From a virus, in IMG/VR virus record IMGVR_UViG_3300010373_000001, positions 51,611-115,610 of that record: a stretch of 64,000 bases of DNA. One strand, given 5' to 3'. Position 1 is the first letter of the stretch; each line of letters begins with the position of its first letter. The translations under genes and the position numbers were made by a program. The notes under the pieces are model-generated. The model worked only from the letters and a program-made list of their open reading frames with translations. It searched no databases and had not been told where the DNA came from. This document shows positions 5,507 through 59,348 of this stretch, piece after piece.

Positions 5507-5917
5507 TCAGCCAGTGCCGGTTACGGTGTAACCCATTGTCTGTGCTGAGATAAGTTTAACTGTAGTTCCGGGGCTAGCGATACCGCCTGCTATAGATGAT
5601 CCCATAGGGGTTACAGTCTGGGGGATCGTTGTTATCAGTGTTCCTGCCGGAACATTCATCAGACCTTGTGTCCAGTATGGTTCTGCATTATCAAGTATAA
5701 CCGTCTGATTGGGCGCAATTTGCTCGTCATCCTGGCCACCGACAGTTGGTGTAGTTCCATCCACTGTAGCGTAAATAGGAGCCGGGGTTGTGCCACTCTC
5801 ATTAGTAATTTCAACAGCACCATAACGGATAGGAACAGAGCCCGATCCGAATGTAATAGTTGTGACAGTGTTCGCTACAAGAGTACCGTTTGCTGTCTCT
5901 ACTGCTGTGAATGGCAT
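5507..5917 (-). CDS. Probable structural/decoration protein
   Basis: 136 aa Thr/Gly-rich beta-sandwich-like sequence. Confidence 0.5.
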   Translation of the reverse strand: MPFTAVETANGTLVANTVTTITFGSGSVPIRYGAVEITNESGTTPAPIYATVDGTTPTVGGQDDEQIAPNQTVILDNAEPYWTQGLMNVPAGTLITTIPQTVTPMGSSIAGGIASPGTTVKLISAQTMGYTVTGTG

Positions 5918-6595: not shown

Positions 6596-8599
6596 TTACC
6601 TAGAATGCCTCTTGTAAACAGGTATTCTCAATTTAGCCATCCAGTCTCTAGGACCGAGAATGGCAGCAATTACTATCTGACCTGCGTGACCAGCAAAAGC
6701 TTTAACGGAAGTATTAGATGAAGGTCCAGGGATATTCAGGTTTACTGTTCCTGCACGGGCTGAAACTGATGAAGCTGAAGCAGTTCCAGGTACAGTAACC
6801 TTTACCGTTCCCGTCTTTGCCGATACTGCTACAGTAGCAGTGATTCCGTGAACAACAGCGTCAGCGCTTACTATACCCGGCGTTGCTGAAATAGTTACAT
6901 GAGCAGTTGTGCCCTGTACTGTTTCAGAAACAGTACCAGGAATAGCAGCCACAGTTGCGGTTGCTGTTACTCCTGTGATAGTTACATTTACAGTCCCCGG
7001 ATTTGCGTGGGCCGTAGCCTGAGCAACAGATCCGGAAATAGTTTCAACGATTGTTCCTGCAATAGCCGCGACGGTTGCCGTAGCTGTGACACCAGGAACA
7101 TTAGCTGATAGCTGCAATCCTCCAGGGTTGGCTACTACAGTTACCGTACTGGTAATGCCGCCAACAACAGTTGCCTGACCAACTACACCATCAGGAGCAA
7201 ATGCATTGACATTACCAGAAGTTCCGTTAATATCAATCTCAATATTACCGGCAACAGCCTGTACAGGAGAGTTAACAACAGTTCCGGGAGCGGAAATCGT
7301 AACTGTTCCGGCTATGGCTGCTACGGATGCTGTAGCAGTAACACCGCTAACTGTTACCGCAGCAGTTACAGTTCCGGGATTAGCAACCACATTTACATTA
7401 GAGGCTACGCCAGGAGTGGTTACATTAACTGTACCGGCTATAGCTGTAGCTGTTACTGTTGCTGCTGTGCCAGGAATGTTTACTACAGCAGTACCATTAT
7501 TCGCTGCTGCATTAACATTTGAAACTGTTCCCTGCGGATTTACTTTTACTGTACCGGCTTGAGCCGCAACTGTATCTGTAGCAGTTGTCCCGGTAATAGT
7601 CTCAACAACTGTGCCCGCGATAGGTGTAACAGTAACAGCAGAAGCTACCCCCGCTGGGGAAATTGTTACTGTTCCTGCAACTGCGGAAACTGTAACTGTG
7701 CCAGTAGGACCAGTAACACCAGTTGATCCAGCACCGCCAGGATTAGCTGTGACAGTTACAGCAGCAGCCACTCCTGGTATAGATTCAGTTACCGTTCCTG
7801 CTACTGCGGCAGCAGCTACAGTAGAAACTGTTCCCGGAATAGCTTCTGTTACTGTTCCGTTTACAGCAGCTACAGTTACGGTTGCCGTAACACCAGTGAC
7901 ATTTACCGGAACTCCGGAGGTAACAGGCAGCAGTTCAACTGCTACCATTCCCCACCAGTCAGCACCAGCGCTGTTTGTCCAAGATAGGAGAGTGGTTTTG
8001 CCGGTGCCTAGCGACGCCTGATCTTCAAACATACCGTTGCCAGCAGCATCGGTATTATTGATATCTTCTTGCCAGCGGATTGTAGATGACGGACCAGCGG
8101 TGAAAGTTCCCCCGCCGTTATTTCCGCCGTAGGAAGTAGCAGCAACTATAAGGCTACTTGCTGTCGTGTTAGCTACAGCGATAATTCCAGATGAACTATT
8201 ACCAAATGCGGTTACTGCTGTCCCGATACTTGATACACCACCGTAGGTGGTTGCACCAGCCCATATTGGGGGGCCACCAGTAACGGTAACAGTATTAGAT
8301 CCTGTAGGCAAGCTGCCAAGCTTGCCGTACATAGCCACGCCACCAGATGTCCCATTATTGCTTGGGATAAATCCGATAAGTGAAAGTGTTGCTGCACCAT
8401 AAGTAACATTAGTTATGGTGTTAGTTCCGCCATTGGTTTTAGCAGCAACGATAATGCAGTTACCAGCATTACCATTAACCAGTGCTCCTGAAGCCCCCGC
8501 GTATCCAGCAGTGGCATCAAGCGTTACCGTTGTTTGAGGCTGTGGCGCGGTTGGCAGAATCTTTGGCGGTATGGGAAAGCCGCGACCTAGAATAGCCAT
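6596..8599 (-). CDS. Repeat-containing fibre-like virion protein
   Basis: 667 aa; N-terminal globular part followed by about 20 repeats of 20-22 aa (GVTATxTVxAxxGTVxxxxx). Confidence 0.65.
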   Translation of the reverse strand: MAILGRGFPIPPKILPTAPQPQTTVTLDATAGYAGASGALVNGNAGNCIIVAAKTNGGTNTITNVTYGAATLSLIGFIPSNNGTSGGVAMYGKLGSLPTGSNTVTVTGGPPIWAGATTYGGVSSIGTAVTAFGNSSSGIIAVANTTASSLIVAATSYGGNNGGGTFTAGPSSTIRWQEDINNTDAAGNGMFEDQASLGTGKTTLLSWTNSAGADWWGMVAVELLPVTSGVPVNVTGVTATVTVAAVNGTVTEAIPGTVSTVAAAAVAGTVTESIPGVAAAVTVTANPGGAGSTGVTGPTGTVTVSAVAGTVTISPAGVASAVTVTPIAGTVVETITGTTATDTVAAQAGTVKVNPQGTVSNVNAAANNGTAVVNIPGTAATVTATAIAGTVNVTTPGVASNVNVVANPGTVTAAVTVSGVTATASVAAIAGTVTISAPGTVVNSPVQAVAGNIEIDINGTSGNVNAFAPDGVVGQATVVGGITSTVTVVANPGGLQLSANVPGVTATATVAAIAGTIVETISGSVAQATAHANPGTVNVTITGVTATATVAAIPGTVSETVQGTTAHVTISATPGIVSADAVVHGITATVAVSAKTGTVKVTVPGTASASSVSARAGTVNLNIPGPSSNTSVKAFAGHAGQIVIAAILGPRDWMAKLRIPVYKRHSR

Positions 8600-21735: not shown

Positions 21736-23364
21736 TCACTTCTCCCACGGCCATGCGGCACTATGAGAACGCTCGATAAGATCCATCATCTTGAACGCGC
21801 TATCAGTCAGACCAGCCAACTGATGCCTCCTGCCATTTCCGCTAGGAATGTCTCCCTGAGCGTACCCTGACAGATCGAAAGCGTATAGGTAAGTGCTTTC
21901 GGGAACAGAGTCACTTACGTTACCTCCGTAACCGTACCCACCATAGCTACGGCTTCCCATTGACTGCATGTCAGTGAATACCACTGCCCTCTTGGTAGAT
22001 GGGCTAGTAGTAGTTCTGATTGATTCAGCAGTGTTGGTGCCGTGGCCAACCGCACCGATCATACGGTTAACCTTCTCAATCTGCCTTAGCAGTGAGCCGC
22101 CACGCTCTACCTTTACTTCCCTTACGTTGTCAGCGAAGATGAACAGTCTGCTGTCCGGGTTTCTCATTGCCGTAGCAATACCGAACAACGCCCCTGCTTC
22201 TGCTCTTCTGATGCTGCTCTTGTTAGACATACCCGTATCCATTGACGCCGAAGTGTCAACGTATACGTCAGTTCTGCCGTTAAGCAGCGGAATGTTTCCT
22301 ACTGACAGTGTTAGGGCTTCCTCAAGAGAGTGAGCCCATGCTGTGCTGGAAGCATTCTTGTAAGCTGACCAGTAGCGGAATGGGAACTGCCTGCCCCTAG
22401 CAACAATCTCAGGGTTGCACAGATCAGCCTGTACCTTAGCAATAGTTGCCTTAGATACACCAGCCTCCTGCATGTTCCTCAGGTTTCTCAGCATAGCCAT
22501 GTGGCCAACTGATCCGCCCATGATAAGAGCATCCCACAGCTTACCCTTGTCCAGCTTAGAACCGGCAAGAGATAGCGCATCTTCCCACGTCATACCCGCA
22601 AACTTCAGGGATGAAGGATCAAGCAGAACGCTAGGATCACTCGCAGCCTGAGCGCGAAGATCAGCGTTGAACCTGATCATAGGAAGGTTAGACAAATCGA
22701 AGTCTGCCTCGTTTCCGTAACGACGGGTCATAGCGTAACGGTACAGATCACTCTGACTATCCACGCCAAAGGTTCTTGGGTGAGTCATCTGAATAACGTC
22801 ACCGAAACGCCACCCCTTAGAAGAGGTGTCGTACTTAAGAAGAGAGTACTCGTTGAACAGCCTGTTAGCTGCGTCAGCAAGACCTCTCTTAACAGCAGAA
22901 GGAATAGTCCTGCCGAACTTCTCAGTCCAGTAGGCAGCCAATTCCCCCGGCTCGTCTGCACGCTGGGGAACAGCACTGATAAACAGCCTGTTCATACCCT
23001 TCTCGCCGCGCTCAATAGAACCATCTTCAACACCAGCCGCTAGTCTTGCGTGTACAGCATGAGCCGCACCCATAAGAGAAGCAGTTCTGATGTTACCTTC
23101 CTGACGTAGCCACCTTAGGAAACTCAGCAGCCATGCAGGATCAGTGATAGCAATCTGCTCAACTAGAGCAGTAAATCTCTTGTCGCGGGACTTACCACTC
23201 TCGTAGAAAGTATCTTCTCCCGCGAACATGTTAACGCCAAGGCGGAACAGTTCACCATAGGCGTCATTGACATAACCAGTCCCGCCCTCATAAGTAACCG
23301 CAGGGCCAACCGTCGTAATTGGTGACGTAGCCGTAACGATCTTCTTGGTGTTCAGTCTTGACAT
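21736..23364 (-). CDS. rsr: Ro60/TROVE-domain RNA-binding protein with C-terminal vWA domain
   Basis: EDTFYE, RADEPGE, KRGLADA, KYD, HP, TWE, MAMLRNLRN, PFRYWSAY motifs; MIDAS DTSASM...TD; start moved to ATG 23364 (MSRLN) behind RBS GGAGG. Confidence 0.93.
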   Translation of the reverse strand: MSRLNTKKIVTATSPITTVGPAVTYEGGTGYVNDAYGELFRLGVNMFAGEDTFYESGKSRDKRFTALVEQIAITDPAWLLSFLRWLRQEGNIRTASLMGAAHAVHARLAAGVEDGSIERGEKGMNRLFISAVPQRADEPGELAAYWTEKFGRTIPSAVKRGLADAANRLFNEYSLLKYDTSSKGWRFGDVIQMTHPRTFGVDSQSDLYRYAMTRRYGNEADFDLSNLPMIRFNADLRAQAASDPSVLLDPSSLKFAGMTWEDALSLAGSKLDKGKLWDALIMGGSVGHMAMLRNLRNMQEAGVSKATIAKVQADLCNPEIVARGRQFPFRYWSAYKNASSTAWAHSLEEALTLSVGNIPLLNGRTDVYVDTSASMDTGMSNKSSIRRAEAGALFGIATAMRNPDSRLFIFADNVREVKVERGGSLLRQIEKVNRMIGAVGHGTNTAESIRTTTSPSTKRAVVFTDMQSMGSRSYGGYGYGGNVSDSVPESTYLYAFDLSGYAQGDIPSGNGRRHQLAGLTDSAFKMMDLIERSHSAAWPWEK

Positions 23365-23455
23365 TGTTACCTCCATAGATAACTGAAGCCACTGTCTGAG
23401 CAGCTTCATTGACAATCTGGTCACATAAAACTGCCACATTCAGTGGCTTGAAAGG

Positions 23456-23536
23456 ACCAGAGAAATAATCGAATACAGTATCTTGTGTTATTTGATAGTT
23501 GTAAATAGTGAAGTAACTGTATTCTTCGCATCTGGT
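23456..23536 (-). ncRNA. Y-RNA-like unit 1 (no tRNA cargo)
   Basis: ACCAGA-TGCGAA-GAATACAG-TTACTTC-loop-CTGTATTC-GATTATTTC-TCTGGT. Confidence 0.75.
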
Positions 23537-23555
23537 ATAAATATTTAAATGTAGA

Positions 23556-23684
23556 GCCTGAGAAAAAATTTAGCGGCCGGAAATGAGATGTTATCTCATG
23601 CGGGCTCCACGCCCAGCATCGCCGTGATTGGTGGCGATGAATAGAATCGAACTATTGAAGTATCCGTTTGCATTCACTTCAGGC
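23556..23684 (-). ncRNA. Y-RNA-like unit 2 (tRNA mimic opened at the variable loop)
   Basis: Shared frame; T-arm, capped acceptor CATCGCC-ACCAATCAC-GGCGATG, D-arm GGGC/GCCC, anticodon-like arm ATGAG-7nt-CTCAT. Confidence 0.8.
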
Positions 23685-23693
23685 AAACTTTGA

Positions 23694-23835
23694 TGGCTTA
23701 GAGAAAAAGTCGGAGTCAGAAATTTTTAGCGCTCTGCCAACTGAGCTATACCCCGGTGTTGTCGGGGCAACAGGATTCGAACCTGTGACCTCTCGTTCCC
23801 AATACGAAGTAACTGTTTCCTGCACTTCTAAGCCA
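23694..23835 (-). ncRNA. Y-RNA-like unit 3 (YrlA-like, tRNA-Pro-derived permutation)
   Basis: Shared frame; TTGGGAACGAGAGGTC, T-arm ACAGG-TTCGAAT-CCTGT, capped acceptor, D-arm GCTC-AGTTGGCA-GAGC. Confidence 0.85.
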
Positions 23836-23842
23836 AGATTTA

Positions 23843-23982
23843 TGTTCTGAGAAATAGTCTAGTACGGTGTCTTATGGGCAGGCACTCTACCAATTGAGTT
23901 ACAAGAGTCTATGACTCCAGACAGGATTCGAACCCGCAGCTTCCTGCTATACGGAAGTATCCGTGCTATTCACATCAGAACA
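23843..23982 (-). ncRNA. Y-RNA-like unit 4 (classical YrlA topology)
   Basis: Shared frame; GCAGG/CCTGC stem, T-arm, GAGTC-ATA-GACTC capped acceptor, D-arm ACTC-AATTGGTA-GAGT. Confidence 0.85.
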
Positions 23983-23989
23983 AAACTAG

Positions 23990-24098
23990 TATCAGAGGAA
24001 AAGTCGAAAACGGAAAAGGCACCAGCCCATATACCAGGGAATCGAACCCTTGGTACTCGATTGTTGGAGAGAAGTAACCGTTCTCTTCACATCTGATA
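23990..24098 (-). ncRNA. Y-RNA-like unit 5 (T-loop hairpin cargo)
   Basis: Shared frame; TACCAAGGG-TTCGATT-CCCTGGTA. Confidence 0.8.
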
Positions 24099-24101
24099 TA
24101 G

Positions 24102-24173
24102 AGACACCTACTGGATTCGAACCAGCGTAACAGGTTTTGCAGACCCGTACCTAAACCACTCGGTCAAGGTGCC
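24102..24173 (-). tRNA. tRNA-Cys(GCA)
   Basis: Cloverleaf; loop CT-GCA-AA; U73. Confidence 0.9.
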
Positions 24174-24181
24174 GTAAAGAG

Positions 24182-24333
24182 TGTGCTAGAGGAAAGCTAA
24201 AGAGAGTGGAATATCTATTTCATTTCACTACCGGCTGTTGCCAGCCGACTTGGACTCGAACCAAGAATTATTAATTTACAGTTAATTGTGTTTACCTTTT
24301 AAGAAGTAACCCTCAACAAACACTTCTAGCACA
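24182..24333 (-). ncRNA. Y-RNA-like unit 6 (tRNA mimic opened in the D-loop, intact GUA anticodon arm)
   Basis: Shared frame; GGTAAACAC, ATTAA-CTGTAAA-TTAAT, CTTGG-TTCGAGT-CCAAG, TCGGCTG-GCAA-CAGCCGG, TAGTG. Confidence 0.8.
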
Positions 24334-24346
24334 TTCAGTTATATGC

Positions 24347-24460
24347 CCAGAGGAACAAACTTGATCAGGGAAATTTCGACCTCCGGGCTATGAACCCGGC
24401 GCTCTATCTGAGCTAATGCGCAAATGCTGCGTATGAAGTACCTGTTCAATTCACTTCTGG
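24347..24460 (-). ncRNA. Y-RNA-like unit 7 (tRNA mimic opened at the T-arm, intact CAU anticodon arm)
   Basis: Shared frame; capped acceptor-like ATACGCA/TGCGCAT, D-arm GCTC/GAGC, CCGGG-TTCATAG-CCCGG, AGGTC. Confidence 0.78.
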
Positions 24461-24466
24461 AACTAG

Positions 24467-24539: not shown

Positions 24540-24857
24540 TTATATGGCTAGTTTCCCTCCATAGCCGGGGAGTGATAGAAGGGGCTGTCTGCCCTTAATC
24601 CGGAGAACAGAGTTGACATTGTATCCGGAAACTACGTAATGGCGCTACCCATATCTAATCTCAGAGTGGCCCCTGACTGTTATCCTTTATCCCTCACCAG
24701 TTGGCCTTGGAAACAAAGGGCACTAGATTTACGTATACTTTATGGCCCAGCCTGTTCTGTAGCCATTATTCAGTCACTATCTACAACTCTCCGTCGAGAG
24801 TTGTTAGTGATGGTAACAGTTCTGACACTGTTACCACCTTGGACGGACCAACAATTG

Positions 24858-24929
24858 TCCAGAGGAAATGCCGGTATTAGTTTACGTGTCCGTCCTGGCG
24901 TTGAAGTAACTAAAACCTTCACATCTGGA
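24858..24929 (-). ncRNA. Y-RNA-like unit 8 (short loop cargo)
   Basis: TCCAGA-TGTGAA-GGTTTTAG-TTACTTC...CTAATACC-GGCATTTCC-TCTGGA. Confidence 0.75.
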
Positions 24930-24935
24930 ACTTAG

Positions 24936-25009: not shown

Positions 25010-25019
25010 TTGAATTAGA

Positions 25020-25088
25020 ATCAGAGAAATAATCGTTAAGGGTATTTTTTTCTGCTTAAAAGAAGTATCCCGTAACTGCGCTTCTGAT
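25020..25088 (-). ncRNA. Y-RNA-like unit 9 (short loop cargo)
   Basis: ATCAGA-AGCGCA-GTTACGGG-ATACTTC...CCCTTAAC-GATTATTTC-TCTGAT. Confidence 0.75.
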
Positions 25089-25093
25089 CACAG

Positions 25094-25286: not shown

Positions 25287-25847
25287 TCACTGTCCACCCG
25301 GAGTGAACCTCTGGAACCAGCCTGATAGCTGGTCACCAGCAAAGGCAAACTGACTGCCGTTGTTCAAACCGGATAGATCGATCAGGCTATTACCGTTTGC
25401 CTGAGTTGCCGCTCTGTTAATGAATACGTCTGCACCATTCCTGGTTGTCAGCGGGAATACTACTCCGTGACCACCATTGCAGTGATCCATAACGGCAGAG
25501 GTATTGCTACTGTTTCCACCTACACACCAGCCGGTGTGCTCCTGCCACTGCAAATTACCATTCTCGTAGGTAACACCCTTGAAAGTAAAGGTAGTACCGA
25601 TATCATGCCACTGAATATCAGTGGCAGGACCGAATACTCCCTGAGAACCTTCTACTACCGGGTTACCTACTGATTCCAGGTTATTTGAATCGCGGATCAG
25701 GAAATTACCTGAAGTCTCATTCAGAACGAATACAACGTCTGGGTGAGGCTTATGTGTTGCTGGTGCAGTTGAACTTGCTGCTGCTACACCACCTGCTGAG
25801 AGCAAGATAGTAGCAGATGTTGCAATTAATGCTAGTAGTCTGCGCAT
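25287..25847 (-). CDS. Secreted protein, possibly ricin/beta-trefoil-like
   Basis: Signal peptide; GWCVG...MDHC disulfide-like pair; fold call is a guess. Confidence 0.5.
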   Translation of the reverse strand: MRRLLALIATSATILLSAGGVAAASSTAPATHKPHPDVVFVLNETSGNFLIRDSNNLESVGNPVVEGSQGVFGPATDIQWHDIGTTFTFKGVTYENGNLQWQEHTGWCVGGNSSNTSAVMDHCNGGHGVVFPLTTRNGADVFINRAATQANGNSLIDLSGLNNGSQFAFAGDQLSGWFQRFTPGGQ

Positions 25848-25874
25848 TATTCTCCTGTTATTCTTTTTCTTTAA

Positions 25875-26351
25875 TCAGCCTGTAGAAGTTGACGCCAGAA
25901 TCAGAAGGCCGTTCTTGGAAACAGGAATCACCATTACCGGCTGCGGATAAGCCACAGTTGGTGAGGCAGTTGTGTAACCTGGAACATCAATCTTGATTGG
26001 CGTAACTCCTGAGTTACCTGTTCCCGGTGCGGGAATCAGGGTAACAATGTAGCCACCATACTGTGTGTGGCCCAGACTGTCTACATAGGTAAGCTGCTGG
26101 ATAGTCTTAAGGGTAGGAAGAACAATAGTTCCGCCTGACGAACCGCCACCAGTTCCGTTGTCAGATCCGAAAATCTTTACGGGAACTACGCCCTCTTTAT
26201 CGATGACACCTACAACATACTGTGTACCACCCTGAGTGAACAGTCCATTGGTAAACGTGAACGTTGCAGCATCAGTCGGAGTACCAGCAGTTACCTGAAA
26301 TGTGCTGTTAACTTCAGGATAACCGGCAAGAGACGCTACTGAAAGAGCCAT
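25875..26351 (-). CDS. Hypothetical beta-rich protein, paralog of 28924..29244
   Basis: GGTQYVVG...GGYIV...GLLILAS shared pattern. Confidence 0.6.
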   Translation of the reverse strand: MALSVASLAGYPEVNSTFQVTAGTPTDAATFTFTNGLFTQGGTQYVVGVIDKEGVVPVKIFGSDNGTGGGSSGGTIVLPTLKTIQQLTYVDSLGHTQYGGYIVTLIPAPGTGNSGVTPIKIDVPGYTTASPTVAYPQPVMVIPVSKNGLLILASTSTG

Positions 26352-26416: not shown

Positions 26417-27418
26417 TTAAGCGGTAAGGATCAGCGCTCTGGTCCCTGCAATCAGTTTCCTGTTAGGTGCGGTGCTTTCCACAAAGATTGTGTAAGGATA
26501 GTTCTCAGGGATTACCTTTACAGATTCGTCGTCTGGCAAACCCAGGACTCGCCTGATTTCCCTGTACCCGATATACACACGGCCATCGAACAGAATAGCA
26601 ATTCTCTTCTGAGACTGAATTATCTCAGGCTTGCTTAGCTGGTAGAACACCATGCCTACATGGAATGGCAGACCGTTATCTCTTACGAAATCATCTGCTC
26701 TTGAGTCTGATAGCACGCCTCTTAGCGCGAAATCCTGCGGCATAAGAGGTGTCATTGTGCTGAGGATGTCATCAGGAGTAAGGGTGTTCAGCTTGAACAG
26801 CGACCTTGAACCGCGAATACCAACCTTACGGTTCTGCATAAAGGTTTCAGTTGTGCGGCGGATAGTTTCGCCCGCCTCAGCAATACCCTTAACTGAAGTA
26901 GCATCCCAGACTTCTACGTTGTCTGCCGGGAAACCAAATCTCTTAGCCTCAAACTTGCCATCCTGGTTCGGCACAAACGCCGCAATAGTCCAGTGATCAG
27001 GCAAACCATCAATAGTGTTCTTCAGATCATATGATCTTGCGGCACTGTTATTCTCCTGACCATCGGTCAGTACGTAGATAAGAAATGCGTGCTCGCCGTA
27101 CTTCTCAGGAGTCATCTTCAGGTCATTGATGGCAAGAAGCGTGGCATCAATAAGAGCAGTCTGGCTCATAACCCGGTAAAGGGATTTGATACTTGGCATT
27201 CTCAGCACATCTTTGTCATAGATCAGGCAGTAGATTTCTCTCCTGTTGCTGAACATATAGACTGTGACGCGAGTTTCCTGATCAAGATCCTTAGATCTTT
27301 GCGCAAGGTATGCAATCTGATTGTCAGCTACCTTGACTAATTCGGCCTCACGGCCTTTCATACTGAAACTGGCATCCAGTACCAGCACGATATGATTGAT
27401 AATGTTTGCTGGTTGCAA
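26417..27418 (-). CDS. vWA (MIDAS) domain protein
   Basis: LVLDASFSM, TALIDA and VLTDGQENNS motifs. Confidence 0.85.
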   Translation of the reverse strand: MQPANIINHIVLVLDASFSMKGREAELVKVADNQIAYLAQRSKDLDQETRVTVYMFSNRREIYCLIYDKDVLRMPSIKSLYRVMSQTALIDATLLAINDLKMTPEKYGEHAFLIYVLTDGQENNSAARSYDLKNTIDGLPDHWTIAAFVPNQDGKFEAKRFGFPADNVEVWDATSVKGIAEAGETIRRTTETFMQNRKVGIRGSRSLFKLNTLTPDDILSTMTPLMPQDFALRGVLSDSRADDFVRDNGLPFHVGMVFYQLSKPEIIQSQKRIAILFDGRVYIGYREIRRVLGLPDDESVKVIPENYPYTIFVESTAPNRKLIAGTRALILTA

Positions 27419-32555: not shown

Positions 32556-32624
32556 AGTGAGCGCATTACCGCAATGCTATTTCCATCTTTATGATGGTAC
32601 GGAGTCGAACCGGCTTCTCTCACT
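32556..32624 (-). ncRNA. Free-standing circularly permuted tRNA mimic
   Basis: AGTGAG..CGG-TTCGACT-CCG..CCATC-ATAAA-GATGG..TA-GCAT-TGCGGTA-ATGC-G-CTCACT. Confidence 0.65.
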
Positions 32625-32765
32625 GTATTGTATTTTTCGCCTGTACCAAAATTGCCTAGGATTTGGGCCTTGGACGCGGCGGGAAGATATGGTTCTGCCA
32701 GAATCAGCCGCCGAAGATTCAGCCGTCTTTACGTGACAAGAGTGATCAACTCTCTTGTTGAACCG

Positions 32766-36275: not shown

Positions 36276-36464
36276 TCAGGAAGTTACCTTCCTGGTGGAA
36301 GTACTGTAGAAGCCGCTTCCTTTAAATACTACTGCGGGTACAGAGAATTTCTTTACCATAACCGTGCCGCAGGAACATTCCTGTTCCTGATCAGCTTCCG
36401 AAATAGGAAGAGTGATAACTCTTGTATCTCCGCAGAATGGGCACCTGTAATCGTATGCGGGCAT
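36276..36464 (-). CDS. FmdB-family zinc ribbon protein
   Basis: MPAYDYRCPFCG...CSCG...FKGSGFYST. Confidence 0.88.
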   Translation of the reverse strand: MPAYDYRCPFCGDTRVITLPISEADQEQECSCGTVMVKKFSVPAVVFKGSGFYSTSTRKVTS

Positions 36465-58604: not shown

Positions 58605-59272
58605 GACCTGTGTCCGCAGATTTTTCATTTTATTTTTTCATCCCAGAAACAGAACGAGGATTGTTACCACGCCCATTACCGTGCAGGCAATCACGTAATC
58701 AGTTGCCTTGTCTTGATTCATTGTGAATACTGACAGTAGCATGAACCACAGTTCTGCCATCAAGCAGGCGAAAGCTAGTGTATTCATTGTTCAGATATTC
58801 AGCAGGATAAGTGCGGGAACCATGATTACCACAGCGGCTACCGTGTAAATCACAGCATCAGTCTTACTTGGAGTTCTACTCGCACGCCAGAACAGACCAA
58901 ACTCAATTCCCGCTAGCATGTAACCCAGAAGCGGCAGGTACTTGCTCATCTCTTCATCCTCACTATGGCTGACCCTGCAAATATAATCGCTACGATGCCA
59001 CCAGCTATTACCGGCAGCAATATGTGATTCAGTAGCATAAAGATTGCTGTAAGAATCGCAGTTACCGCGCAGAGGACAAGAAAGATAACATCTACGGTCC
59101 TGTCCCTAACTCTTGTTCTGCTCATTTGCGCTTGCTTAGCGTAATCAGGAACCACAACAGAAAGCAGAGCACAAAACCAATCACTACTGGCAGTACCCAG
59201 CCTGGATATTGCGGACCTGAGTTAATAGCACTTGCCAACATCGTTTCTCTCCCTTATTTTTATTTTACCTAG

Positions 59273-59348
59273 TATCCTCAGCAGGACTCGAACCTGCGCC
59301 TCCATCATGTGAATGATGACGCTCTATGCCATATTAAGCTATGAGGAA
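59273..59348 (-). tRNA. Atypical tRNA with 8-nt anticodon loop (Val-CAC-like)
   Basis: Good D and T arms; TCATC-ATTCACAT-GATGG; U1xU72 mismatch; A73. Confidence 0.65.

What the first reader, a model, noticed from the sequence alone, without database searches (positions are those of the whole stretch)
23556..24460. The Y-RNA cargoes are tRNAs circularly permuted at four different positions
Seen in the sequence: the acceptor stem is closed by a loop in each mimic, but the point where the frame joins differs. Units 3 and 4 are opened at the anticodon arm, the known YrlA topology; unit 3 retains a tRNA-Pro-like TTGGGAACGAGAGGTC. Unit 2 is opened at the variable loop, keeps all four arms, and its capping loop begins ACCA, like a fossil discriminator plus CCA. 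Unit 6 is opened in the D-loop and keeps ATTAA-CT-GTA-AA-TTAAT (Tyr anticodon). Unit 7 is opened at the T-arm and keeps CCGGG-TT-CAT-AG-CCCGG (Met anticodon). Unit 5 has only a T-loop hairpin. Inference: cargoes were captured independently from tandem tRNA genes or from circularised tRNA. The set displays different tRNA faces (elbow versus anticodon loop) on RNAs that cannot be charged, as expected of baits for anticodon nucleases, synthetases or modification enzymes.
Basis: partly seen in the sequence, partly recalled or inferred. Interest (0 to 1): 0.9.

Follow-up and report, generated by a model that had tools for sequence, protein, structure and literature searches.

The report
Phage Y RNAs carrying rewired tRNAs
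A 116-kb phage encodes, just upstream of its Ro60 gene, nine small RNAs that share one Ro60-type stem; five of them carry a tRNA look-alike joined to that stem at different points of the cloverleaf, and the same wirings recur in related phages, so this is a real and apparently undescribed extension of the known tRNA-mimicking Y RNAs whose function is still untested.

Summary
Nine minus-strand units (25091-23455) lie upstream of a TROVE/Ro60 gene. Each has a covarying terminal helix, a conserved GAWGYG motif, a second covarying helix and a conserved KWUACUUC.

After in-silico re-permutation the cargoes score like real tRNAs in ARAGORN:
- Unit 2: 110, joined at the variable loop.
- Unit 3: 115-120, joined at positions 26/27.
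- Unit 4: 108-112, joined in the anticodon arm.
- Unit 6: 120, joined in the D arm.
- Unit 7: 115-118 once any T arm is grafted in.
- Shuffles and genomic controls reach at most 104. The phage's own tRNAs score 105-124.

The T-arm-less, D-split and variable-loop classes recur in the same order in related phage arrays, with compensatory changes in their stems. They are therefore old, maintained classes, not debris or recent captures.

Capping loops begin N-CCA in the tRNA register far more often than chance (25/291, p=7e-8). Anticodon-like loops keep U33/R37/A38 while the triplet varies.

The "tRNA-Pro fossil" reading is doubtful. "Independent capture" and "bait" remain untested.

Most likely these are Ro60-bound tRNA mimics that expose different tRNA surfaces. 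The scan has noted similar arrays in other phages.

The parts
21736..23367 (-). Ro60 (TROVE + vWA) gene. The likely start is the ATG at 23365-23367, preceded by GGAGGT. The longest ORF runs to 23439.
   Evidence: Pfam TROVE, E 3.4e-17. 2502 homologues at E<=1e-10, all carrying TROVE.
23455..23539 (-). Unit 1: frame only, with no tRNA-like cargo (48-nt loop).
   Evidence: Frame motifs and closing helix ACCAGA/TCTGGT. Helix 2 is 9 bp, -11.3 kcal/mol. No ARAGORN hit.
23555..23687 (-). Unit 2. Order: frame, T arm (23656-23640), capped 7-bp acceptor (23639-23617, cap ACCAATCAC), D arm (23614-23602), anticodon-like arm ATGAG-ATAACAT-CTCAT (23599-23583), frame. The frame emerges at the variable-loop position.
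   Evidence: Re-permuted ARAGORN 110.1; 0 of 1000 shuffles reach it. The RNAfold MFE gives all four hairpins plus both frame helices. Homologue at L008:5757-5886 with loop CTCATAA.
23695..23836 (-). Unit 3, YrlA type. Order: anticodon-like ('V') hairpin 23808-23792 built with the frame's TTC, variable AGGTC, T arm 23786-23770, capped acceptor 23769-23749, D arm 23746-23731.
   Evidence: Rfam YrlA 32 bits, below the gathering score of 69. Re-permuted ARAGORN 115.1-120.5. Homologues L002:5617-5756, L005:5555-5693 and L020:5561-5698 have compensatory stem changes.
23843..23984 (-). Unit 4, YrlA type. T arm 23937-23921, capped acceptor 23918-23904, D arm 23899-23884. The anticodon stem GCAGG/CCTGC is formed by the two ends of the cargo. 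An alternative local hairpin is CTTCC-8 nt-GGAAG.
   Evidence: Rfam YrlA 31.2 bits over the full model. Re-permuted ARAGORN 108.1-111.9.
23989..24101 (-). Unit 5. Hairpin with loop TCCAACAAT (24071-24056), long T-loop hairpin (24055-24032), GG-loop hairpin (24028-24018). There is no acceptor stem and it is not a full tRNA mimic.
   Evidence: Best re-permuted score is only 97.2. Homologue at L008:5639-5747.
24101..24173 (-). Genuine tRNA-Cys(GCA) between units 6 and 5. It lies 10 nt after unit 6 and 4 nt before unit 5.
   Evidence: Rfam tRNA 56.8 bits and ARAGORN. Related arrays (L008, L096, L118) carry a framed, native-order tRNA-like unit immediately after their D-split unit.
24183..24334 (-). 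Unit 6. Order: frame, D-loop 3' part and D-stem 3' strand (AAAAGGTAA-ACAC, 24300-24288), anticodon arm ATTAA-CTGTAAA-TTAAT (24286-24270), T arm (24265-24249), acceptor capped by GCAA (24248-24231), TA-GTG D-stem 5' strand (from 24230), frame.
   Evidence: Re-permuted ARAGORN 119.8, junction after position 12; 0 of 1000 shuffles reach it. Rfam tRNA local hit, model 10-63, 23.4 bits. Homologues L008:4940-5092, L096:2854-3007 and L118:2501-2658.
24345..24464 (-). Unit 7. Order: frame, capped acceptor (24434-24416), TA, D arm GCTC-AGATA-GAGC (24413-24401), anticodon arm CCGGG-TTCATAG-CCCGG (24399-24383), variable AGGTC, frame. There is no T arm; frame helix 2 sits where the T stem would be.
   Evidence: ARAGORN 115-118 with a grafted T arm, against at most 100 for shuffled bodies. 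86% identity to positions 1-48 of a tRNA-Met gene. Homologues in L002, L008, L096 and L118 have covarying stems.
24857..24932 (-). Unit 8: frame only.
25019..25091 (-). Unit 9: frame only.

Best explanation
This is a co-oriented, probably co-transcribed array of Ro60-binding Y RNAs.

Every unit has the same handle: a terminal helix formed by its 5' and 3' ends, a conserved purine-rich motif (GAWGYG here, GGUGCG in most relatives) facing a U-rich 3' strand, a second helix, and KWUACUUC. Five units carry a tRNA-shaped module.

Both RNA ends must lie in the handle. The tRNA module therefore has its acceptor end closed by a loop and is threaded in permuted order. The handle leaves the cloverleaf at a different junction in each class:
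- Position 26/27 or the anticodon arm in U3 and U4. This is the published YrlA arrangement with its 'V' hairpin.
- The variable-loop side in U2.
- The D arm in U6.
- In place of the T arm in U7.

Shown here: the tRNA-likeness, the connectivities, the conservation of each class in related phages, and the anticodon-loop signature.

Inferred: the RNAs bind the phage Ro60 through the handle and present tRNA-like surfaces (elbow, anticodon arm, or both) to host or phage proteins that recognise tRNA. This would tether those proteins to Ro60 or titrate them. As transcribed the RNAs cannot be aminoacylated. Flanking tRNAs would let RNase P and 3' processing release the units.
For: - The Ro60 gene lies directly downstream on the same strand.
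- The terminal helix covaries between the nine units.
- Helix 2 pairs better with its own partner than with other units' partners: -8.2 vs -4.5 kcal/mol in the window, and -12.0 vs -8.1 over 364 units, p 6e-46.
- The same handle was found in 364 distinct units on the Ro60 strand of 131 Ro60-containing loci (flanks of 4-6 kb; position relative to Ro60 not tallied).
- Re-permuted or grafted cargoes score as tRNAs, far above the controls.
- Each unusual class has orthologues with compensatory stem changes and shared order in L002, L008, L096 and L118.
- The U7 class lacks the T arm and also lacks the D-loop GG that would contact it, in all five members.
- Anticodon-like loops have U33 in 75/75, A38 in 74/75 and R37 in 73/75, with 34 different triplets. 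Such a hairpin is present in 49% of units against 4.7% of shuffles.
- From the literature: YrlA RNAs bind Rsr/Ro60, are modified by TruB and DusA, and M. smegmatis YrlA is cleaved by RNase P (PMC4201824). A Thermus phage Ro60 binds two upstream Y-like RNAs and host PNPase (PMC12135203).
Against: - No expression, end-mapping or binding data exist for any of these RNAs.
- Rfam YrlA matches only U3 and U4, at 31-32 bits against a gathering score of 69.
- The window's 5' motif (AGAWGYG) departs from the published GNCGAAN0-1G.
- For U2 and U6 the secondary structure allows a second description: YrlA plus an extra hairpin for U2, and a local D-like hairpin for U6.
- One member of the T-arm-less class (L008) has a GCGG tetraloop instead of an anticodon loop, and L055 has an 8-nt loop. 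The anticodon loop is therefore not indispensable.
- The partner proteins are unknown.
Confidence: 0.6

Rival explanations
1. Decoys. The mimics are baits that soak up tRNA-targeting defence or toxin enzymes (anticodon nucleases, CCA-end modifying toxins). Each class or anticodon triplet would imitate a different target tRNA, and Ro60 would stabilise the bait or hand it on.
For: - The anticodon-loop architecture is conserved while the triplet is hypervariable, even between close relatives: CTATTAA in L055 vs CTACTAA in L078.
- N-CCA is enriched in the caps.
- The array sits inside a 34-gene tRNA cluster.
- The mimics cannot be charged as transcribed.
Against: - There is no direct evidence.
- Some class members lack a 7-nt loop (L008 tetraloop, L055).
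- About 60% of framed units have no detectable tRNA-likeness at all: 167 without a T arm plus 53 with a T arm but scoring below 108.
- The genome has no RtcB, Rnl-type ligase or CCA-adding enzyme that would point to a tRNA-damage theme.
Confidence: 0.2
2. Two-piece RNAs. Units with a 7-bp acceptor stem, above all those whose cap starts N-CCA (U2), are cut by RNase P at the 5' side of the acceptor 5' strand and trimmed to CCA. This is what happens to M. smegmatis YrlA. The result would be a split tRNA-like molecule with a free CCA end, still held together and bound to Ro60 by the handle, and possibly chargeable.
For: - Perfect 7-bp acceptor stems in U2, U3 and U6.
- N-CCA at the exact register in 25 of 291 caps, against 2-3 at every other offset.
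- None of the phage's real tRNA genes encodes CCA.
Against: - About 91% of caps lack N-CCA, and many are stable tetraloops (GCAA, TTCG).
- The motif extends beyond CCA, as (N)CCAAT(C)A, and also occurs in loops that do not cap an acceptor stem. It may therefore be a binding loop rather than a 3' end.
- U2 lacks U8 and A14.
Confidence: 0.15
3. True permuted tRNA genes. The handle would be removed, the ends joined and the cap opened, as in algal and archaeal permuted tRNAs, to yield working tRNAs.
For: - Re-permuted U6 (119.8) and U2 (110.1, with encoded CCA) look like complete tRNAs.
Against: - The phage already has tRNAs for all 20 amino acids, including Tyr-GTA, Pro-TGG and Met-CAT.
- No RNA ligase was found.
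- The handle is a conserved Ro60-type stem shared with units that have no tRNA cargo, not a bulge-helix-bulge motif.
- U7 has no T arm.
- Anticodon triplets are not conserved between orthologues.
Confidence: 0.03
4. Debris. The cargoes would be decaying tRNA fragments trapped between repeated sequences of a recombining tRNA cluster, with no function of their own.
For: - The array is interleaved with real tRNA genes.
- Three of the nine units are empty.
Against: - Every arm is intact.
- Each odd class is kept, with compensatory changes, in phages whose Ro60 is under 50% identical.
- The loss of the D-loop GG goes together with the loss of the T arm, which is coordinated rather than random.
Confidence: 0.02

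Closest known systems
YrlA (Y RNA-like A, Rfam RF02553; Chen et al. 2014, PMC4201824)
   Same: - A small RNA encoded next to Ro60/Rsr on the same strand.
- Its 5' and 3' ends pair in a Ro60-binding stem that carries a conserved purine motif.
- Its body mimics the tRNA T arm, a loop-closed acceptor stem and the D arm, often with a fourth 'V' hairpin upstream of the T arm.
- U3 and U4 have exactly this arrangement.
   Different: - There are nine units in a row.
- The handle has an extra covarying helix plus KWUACUUC.
- The 'V' hairpin has a full anticodon-loop signature.
- Three further connectivities occur: variable-loop side, D arm, and replacement of the T arm. Relatives add native order, position 7/8 and position 65/66.
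- The Rfam score is far below the gathering threshold.
Deinococcus radiodurans Yrn1
   Same: It is a Y RNA whose tRNA-like part is wired differently from YrlA: the T and D arms are in the opposite orientation and the closed stem lies at the anticodon position. It was already taken as a sign of independent origin from tRNA (PMC4201824).
   Different: - It is a single RNA from another lineage.
- It is not part of a multi-class array.
- Its D arm is doubtful.
Thermus phage phiLo Yrl1/Yrl2 with phage Ro60 (PMC12135203)
   Same: Phage-encoded Ro60 with several Y-like RNAs just upstream. Binding was shown in vitro, and a complex with host PNPase was observed.
   Different: - There are two RNAs.
- They are described as stem-bulge-stem with a CGAA motif.
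- In the passages I retrieved, no tRNA-like, permuted cargo is described.
Circularly permuted tRNA genes of red and green algae and Thermofilum (PMC3978253, PMC3218864)
   Same: The 3' part of a tRNA is encoded before the 5' part, with the acceptor ends joined by a short linker. Several junction positions are known.
   Different: - Those genes mature into working tRNAs through a bulge-helix-bulge cut, a circular intermediate, and RNase P and tRNase Z.
- Here the junction carries a Ro60-type handle, no such machinery is evident, and one class has no T arm.
Two-piece (permuted) tmRNA
   Same: A bacterial tRNA-like RNA whose gene is circularly permuted and whose tRNA-like domain is assembled from two strands.
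   Different: - tmRNA is charged and acts on ribosomes.
- It has no Ro60 handle.
- It has a single permutation point.

Membership tests
Bacterial/phage Y RNA of the YrlA type (RF02553) | Encoded within a few kb of a Ro60/TROVE gene, on the same strand. | tested here: met
   The units lie 15-1650 nt upstream of the TROVE ORF on the minus strand. The same handle was found on the Ro60 strand in the 4-6-kb flanks of Ro60 in 131 related loci.
Bacterial/phage Y RNA of the YrlA type (RF02553) | 5' and 3' ends pair in a stem. | tested here: met
   A 5-9-bp terminal helix is present in all nine units and differs in sequence between them. RNA ends were not mapped.
Bacterial/phage Y RNA of the YrlA type (RF02553) | GNCGAAN0-1G Ro60-recognition motif near the 5' end. 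| tested here: inconclusive
   The window has NNAGAWGYG or NNUGAWGYG, with no C before the GA. Relatives have CCGAAGYG or CCGGUGCG. The motif is similar but not identical.
Bacterial/phage Y RNA of the YrlA type (RF02553) | tRNA-like T arm, loop-closed acceptor stem and D arm, in that order. | tested here: met
   Met by U2, U3 and U4. U6 has the D arm split or replaced. Not met by U7 (no T arm), U5, U1, U8 or U9.
Bacterial/phage Y RNA of the YrlA type (RF02553) | Score at or above Rfam's gathering threshold. | tested here: not met
   U3 scores 32.0 bits and U4 31.2 bits against a threshold of 69. The other units give no hit.
Bacterial/phage Y RNA of the YrlA type (RF02553) | Bound by Ro60 in vivo or in vitro. 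| not testable with these tools
   This needs a pull-down or EMSA.
tRNA (RF00005) | Contiguous cloverleaf with free acceptor ends. | tested here: not met
   ARAGORN and Rfam call no tRNA in any unit as encoded. There are only local Rfam hits of 16-23 bits. The cloverleaf appears only after re-permutation.
Circularly permuted tRNA genes (algal/archaeal type) | 3' half before 5' half, with acceptor ends joined by a linker. | tested here: met
   U2, U3, U4, U6 and U7.
Circularly permuted tRNA genes (algal/archaeal type) | Bulge-helix-bulge motif at the termini and maturation into a functional tRNA. | not tested
   No BHB search was run. The termini carry a Ro60-type handle shared with cargo-less units. 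No RtcB or Rnl ligase is present in the genome.

The most novel reading that the evidence does not exclude
The handle-plus-tRNA units would form a programmable family. The anticodon-like loop has fixed U33/R37/A38 and a free triplet, and together with the choice of junction it would set which tRNA-recognising enzyme or tRNA-targeting defence nuclease each Ro60 particle engages. The array would then be a phage-encoded panel of isoacceptor-specific tRNA decoys or adaptors. Some members, those with N-CCA caps, would be opened by RNase P into two-piece molecules with a real CCA end.
Probability: 0.2. Interest if true: 0.85.

Novelty: new variant of a known kind. Interest (0 to 1): 0.72.

Why it matters
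Y RNAs that mimic tRNA have been known since 2014, but what the tRNA-like part is for remains open.

This array is a natural experiment on that question. The same Ro60 handle is attached to a tRNA body at several different junctions. One class has lost the elbow and kept the anticodon arm. Another keeps the elbow without an anticodon arm. All classes are conserved across related phages. This tells experimenters which surfaces to test and supplies ready-made variants for pull-downs.

Two further points. Circular permutation of tRNA-like RNAs recurs in phages and is tolerated at nearly every junction of the cloverleaf. And the 'variable' hairpin of YrlA-type RNAs in this clade carries a strict anticodon-loop signature with a fast-changing triplet, which is what a specificity element would look like.

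Tried and rejected
- The contigs encoding the closest Ro60 relatives (81%, 73% and 70% identity, Logan assemblies) could not be fetched. All comparisons rest on relatives with Ro60 at or below 49% identity.
- **Single-protein locus search.** The scan of viral contigs found nothing. The alignment-based scans worked.
- **DNA search of the whole array against phage records.** It hit only the genuine tRNAs.
- **Donor search.** No cargo is closer to the phage's own tRNAs than the generic tRNA-to-tRNA identity of 0.60-0.71. BLAST of the U6 and U2 bodies gave nothing significant. Only U7 found a tRNA-Met relative.
- **The GAAG...CUUC 'frame hairpin'.** Rejected as a conserved helix. GAWGYG varies (A/U, U/C) without compensation in the invariant UACUUC. 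The stretch between the two motifs pairs instead with the 3' tail, forming helix 2.
- **MAFFT alignments of the U7 and U6 classes**. They were not structure-consistent in the acceptor region. Stem covariation was read from per-sequence parses.
- **First automatic census.** It mislabelled U2 as T-arm-less because the graft scored slightly higher. This was corrected by requiring the absence of a T arm.
- **ARAGORN solutions for un-grafted U7 and for U5 (both 97.2).** The U7 solution is spurious because it uses the anticodon arm as a T arm. The U5 solution is marginal.
- **The motif at 36319.** It is just two hairpins, not a unit.
- **Promoter and terminator scan of the array.** It was no different from shuffles.
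Full report
**Setting**

The window is part of a complete 115.6-kb virus record with terminal repeats. All 34 of its tRNA genes lie in the window, on the minus strand.

The ORF at 21736-23439(-) is a Ro60 homologue: TROVE at E 3.4e-17 plus vWA. It has 2502 homologues. No RtcB, Rnl-type RNA ligase or CCA-adding enzyme is encoded.

**The frame**

Nine units on the minus strand between 25091 and 23455 share the motif GAWGYG-(11-12 nt)-TACTTC.
- In each unit, the 5-9 nt ending in the GA of that motif are complementary to a stretch 70-150 nt downstream, which is preceded by TTTCC or TTTTC.
- The paired sequences differ from unit to unit: CCAGA/TCTGG, GCTAGA/TCTAGC, TATCAGA/TCTGATA, GTTCTGA/TCAGAAC, GCTTAGA/TCTAAGC, GCCTGA/TCAGGC.
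- The variable stretch between GAWGYG and TACTTC pairs with the segment just 5' of the U-rich 3' motif. This is helix 2. Cognate duplexes average -8.2 kcal/mol against -4.5 for non-cognate pairs among the nine units. Over 364 related units the figures are -12.0 against -8.1, with Mann-Whitney p 6e-46.
- The handle is therefore: terminal helix, conserved internal loop, helix 2, KWUACUUC.
- GAAG and CUUC do not covary, so I do not take them as a helix.

The same handle occurs in 364 distinct units found on the Ro60 strand of 131 of the 160 related loci that were fetched with 4-6 kb of flank on each side of Ro60. Most of these carry GGUGCG as the 5' motif and UUGAUC as the 3' motif. Position relative to the gene was not tallied and a few regex matches fall inside or downstream of Ro60, but in every array I examined individually the units lie upstream. 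This is a widespread Ro60-linked RNA family, not a peculiarity of this phage.

Rfam's YrlA model sees only U3 (32 bits) and U4 (31 bits). Both are below the gathering score of 69.

**The permutation test**

I trimmed each cargo by 0-15 nt at the 5' end and 0-45 nt at the 3' end, duplicated it in tandem, and kept the best ARAGORN hit that spanned the junction. A second run started from wider windows.

| Unit | Score | Called as | Junction |
|---|---|---|---|
| U2 | 110.1 | Val-AAC | after position 45 |
| U3 | 115.1-120.5 | Pro-TGG | after 27-29 |
| U4 | 108.1-111.9 | – | after 31-38 |
| U6 | 119.8 | Tyr-GTA | after 12 |

- None of 1000 dinucleotide shuffles per unit reached the observed value (maxima 94-104).
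- 1000 genomic 105-mers put through the same optimisation reached at most 103.4, with a 99th percentile of 93.9.
- The phage's real tRNAs score 105-123.5.
- U7 has no T arm. With any of five T arms grafted between its variable loop and its acceptor 3' strand it scores 115-118 as tRNA-Met(CAT). The same graft on a shuffled body gives at most 100.
- The U7 body is 86% identical over 50 nt (E 5e-7) to an unannotated tRNA-Met gene of Bordetella phage PHB09. The match covers tRNA positions 1-48 and ends where the T arm begins.

**Anatomy and caveats**

- **U2.** The secondary structure is a five-way junction: helix 2, T arm, acceptor, D arm and one further hairpin. RNAfold predicts all of these. 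"Opened at the variable loop" and "YrlA plus an extra hairpin after the D arm" describe the same drawing. Which helix stacks as the anticodon arm cannot be read from sequence.
- **U3.** It has a local hairpin, TTCGT-ATTGGGA-ACGAG, whose 5' strand is the frame's TTC plus two cargo bases. In relatives those two bases covary with their partners: GT/AC, GA/TC, GC/GC, TC/GA. This is the hairpin that Chen et al. called 'V' (PMC4201824).
- **U6.** The D-stem 5' strand GTG can pair with ACAC upstream, across the frame, or with CCAC downstream. In L096 and L118 both alternatives change together (GTTT with AAAC on either side), so covariation does not decide between them. The conserved GGTAAA in the 5' linker favours a split D arm.
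- **U5.** It is not a full mimic.

**Relatives**

AT-rich relatives carry large arrays: L008 with at least 10 units, L096 (identical to L018) with 7, L118 with 7, and L002 with 4. The classes of the window recur there:

| Class | Members | Covariation and other features |
|---|---|---|
| T-arm-less | U7, L002:5391-5525, L096:2489-2614, L118:2146-2274, L008:4769-4900 | Anticodon stems CCGGG/CCCGG, CCGAC/GTCGG, CTGGC/GCCAG, CCACAC/GTGTGG. Acceptor stems covary. No D loop has GG. |
| D-split | U6, L008:4940-5092, L096:2854-3007, L118:2501-2658 | Acceptor, T and anticodon stems all differ and all pair. |
| Variable-loop | U2, L008:5757-5886 | L008 loop is CTCATAA. |

- In WIN, L008, L096 and L118 the T-arm-less unit is followed by the D-split unit.
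- The classes are therefore orthologous and older than these phages' divergence (Ro60 at or below 49% identity).
- A census of the 364 units:

| Category | Units |
|---|---|
| Opened at 26-31 | 109 |
| Opened in the anticodon loop | 12 |
| Opened at 39-48 | 6 |
| T-arm-less | 5 |
| D-split | 4 |
| Native order, or opened at 7-9 | 5 |
| Opened beyond position 48 | 3 |
| T arm present but score below 108 | 53 |
| No T arm and no tRNA-likeness | 167 |

- Of the three units opened beyond position 48, L144 and L053 are opened at about 64/65, between the T arm and the acceptor. The third row (L015) spans two adjacent units and is not a clean example.

**Two family-wide signals**

- **Capping loops.** Caps of the acceptor stems start N-CCA in 25 of 291 cases, against 7.1 expected and 2-3 at any other offset (p 7e-8). 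None of the phage's own tRNA genes encodes CCA. The motif often extends to CCAAT(C)A and also appears in loops that are not acceptor caps. Whether it is a fossil, an RNase P or CCA-register signal, or a binding loop is open.
- **Anticodon-like loops.** Among 152 units with a T arm, 75 have a perfect 5-bp/7-nt hairpin in the anticodon-arm register, which is 49% against 4.7% of shuffles. Their loops have U33 in 75/75, A38 in 74/75, purine 37 in 73/75 and pyrimidine 32 in 67/75, but 34 different triplets.

**Interpretation**

The structural claim is solid. On origin:
- Descent from tRNA genes is supported for U7 and is plausible for the rest.
- "Captured independently by this phage" is not supported, because the classes are shared with distant relatives and no donor exists among the phage's tRNAs.
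- The 'tRNA-Pro' string is mostly the conserved GGAAC-GAG-AGGTC of YrlA-type units.

On function: Ro60 binding and tethering or titration of tRNA-recognising proteins is inferred from what is published for YrlA, Yrn1 and the Thermus phage particle (PMC4201824, PMC12135203). The decoy idea remains an attractive but untested special case.

**Prior notes and literature**

Earlier notes of this scan describe similar many-membered arrays with differently wired tRNA mimics next to Ro60-like genes in other phages. They are unchecked by me and are not counted as evidence.

In the papers I could search I found no description of such multi-connectivity arrays. The two main reviews were not held.

Noticed in passing
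window 24569-24801 (-): A match to the manA RNA family (RF01745) sits inside the array, between unit 8 and tRNA-Met. It scores 42.2 bits with E 5e-9 over the full model, below the gathering score of 55.2.
   Followed up: no
window 32556-32640 (-): A free-standing YrlA-like mimic without the Ro60 handle lies a few nt before tRNA-Arg(TCT). It has a closing stem AGTGAG/CTCACT, a T-loop hairpin with TTCGACT, a capped stem CCATC-ATAAA-GATGG, and a GG-loop hairpin.
   Followed up: partly
window, all 34 tRNA genes: No tRNA gene encodes CCA after the discriminator. The set includes tRNA-Ile(TAT) and one gene with an abnormal anticodon loop at 59272-59348.
   Followed up: no
L096:3145-3287, L008:5174-5300, L118:2788-2920: Related arrays contain a class absent from the window: a tRNA-like cargo in native order. 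Its open acceptor stem (for example ATACAAA/TTTGTAT) continues into the handle. It sits immediately after the D-split unit in those arrays; in the window the genuine tRNA-Cys follows unit 6.
   Followed up: partly
L144:~8400-8510, L053:~5530-5640: Another connectivity in relatives. The order is capped acceptor-like hairpin, D arm, anticodon arm, variable loop, T arm, then the handle, so the unit is opened at 65/66. It looks like the T-arm-less class with the T arm still present.
   Followed up: no
WIN U2 cap 23632-23624; WIN U5 loop 24068-24059; L040, L096, L118, L144, L005, L020, L023, L035: A recurrent loop motif (N)CCAAT(C)A or CCAACAAT appears in acceptor caps and other hairpin loops of several unit classes, in both GC-rich and AT-rich relatives.
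   Followed up: partly
window 26417-27418 (-) and 25287-26351 (-): Upstream of the array lie a weak vWA-domain ORF (333 aa) and two ORFs without Pfam matches. Whether they belong to the Ro60 module was not examined.
   Followed up: no
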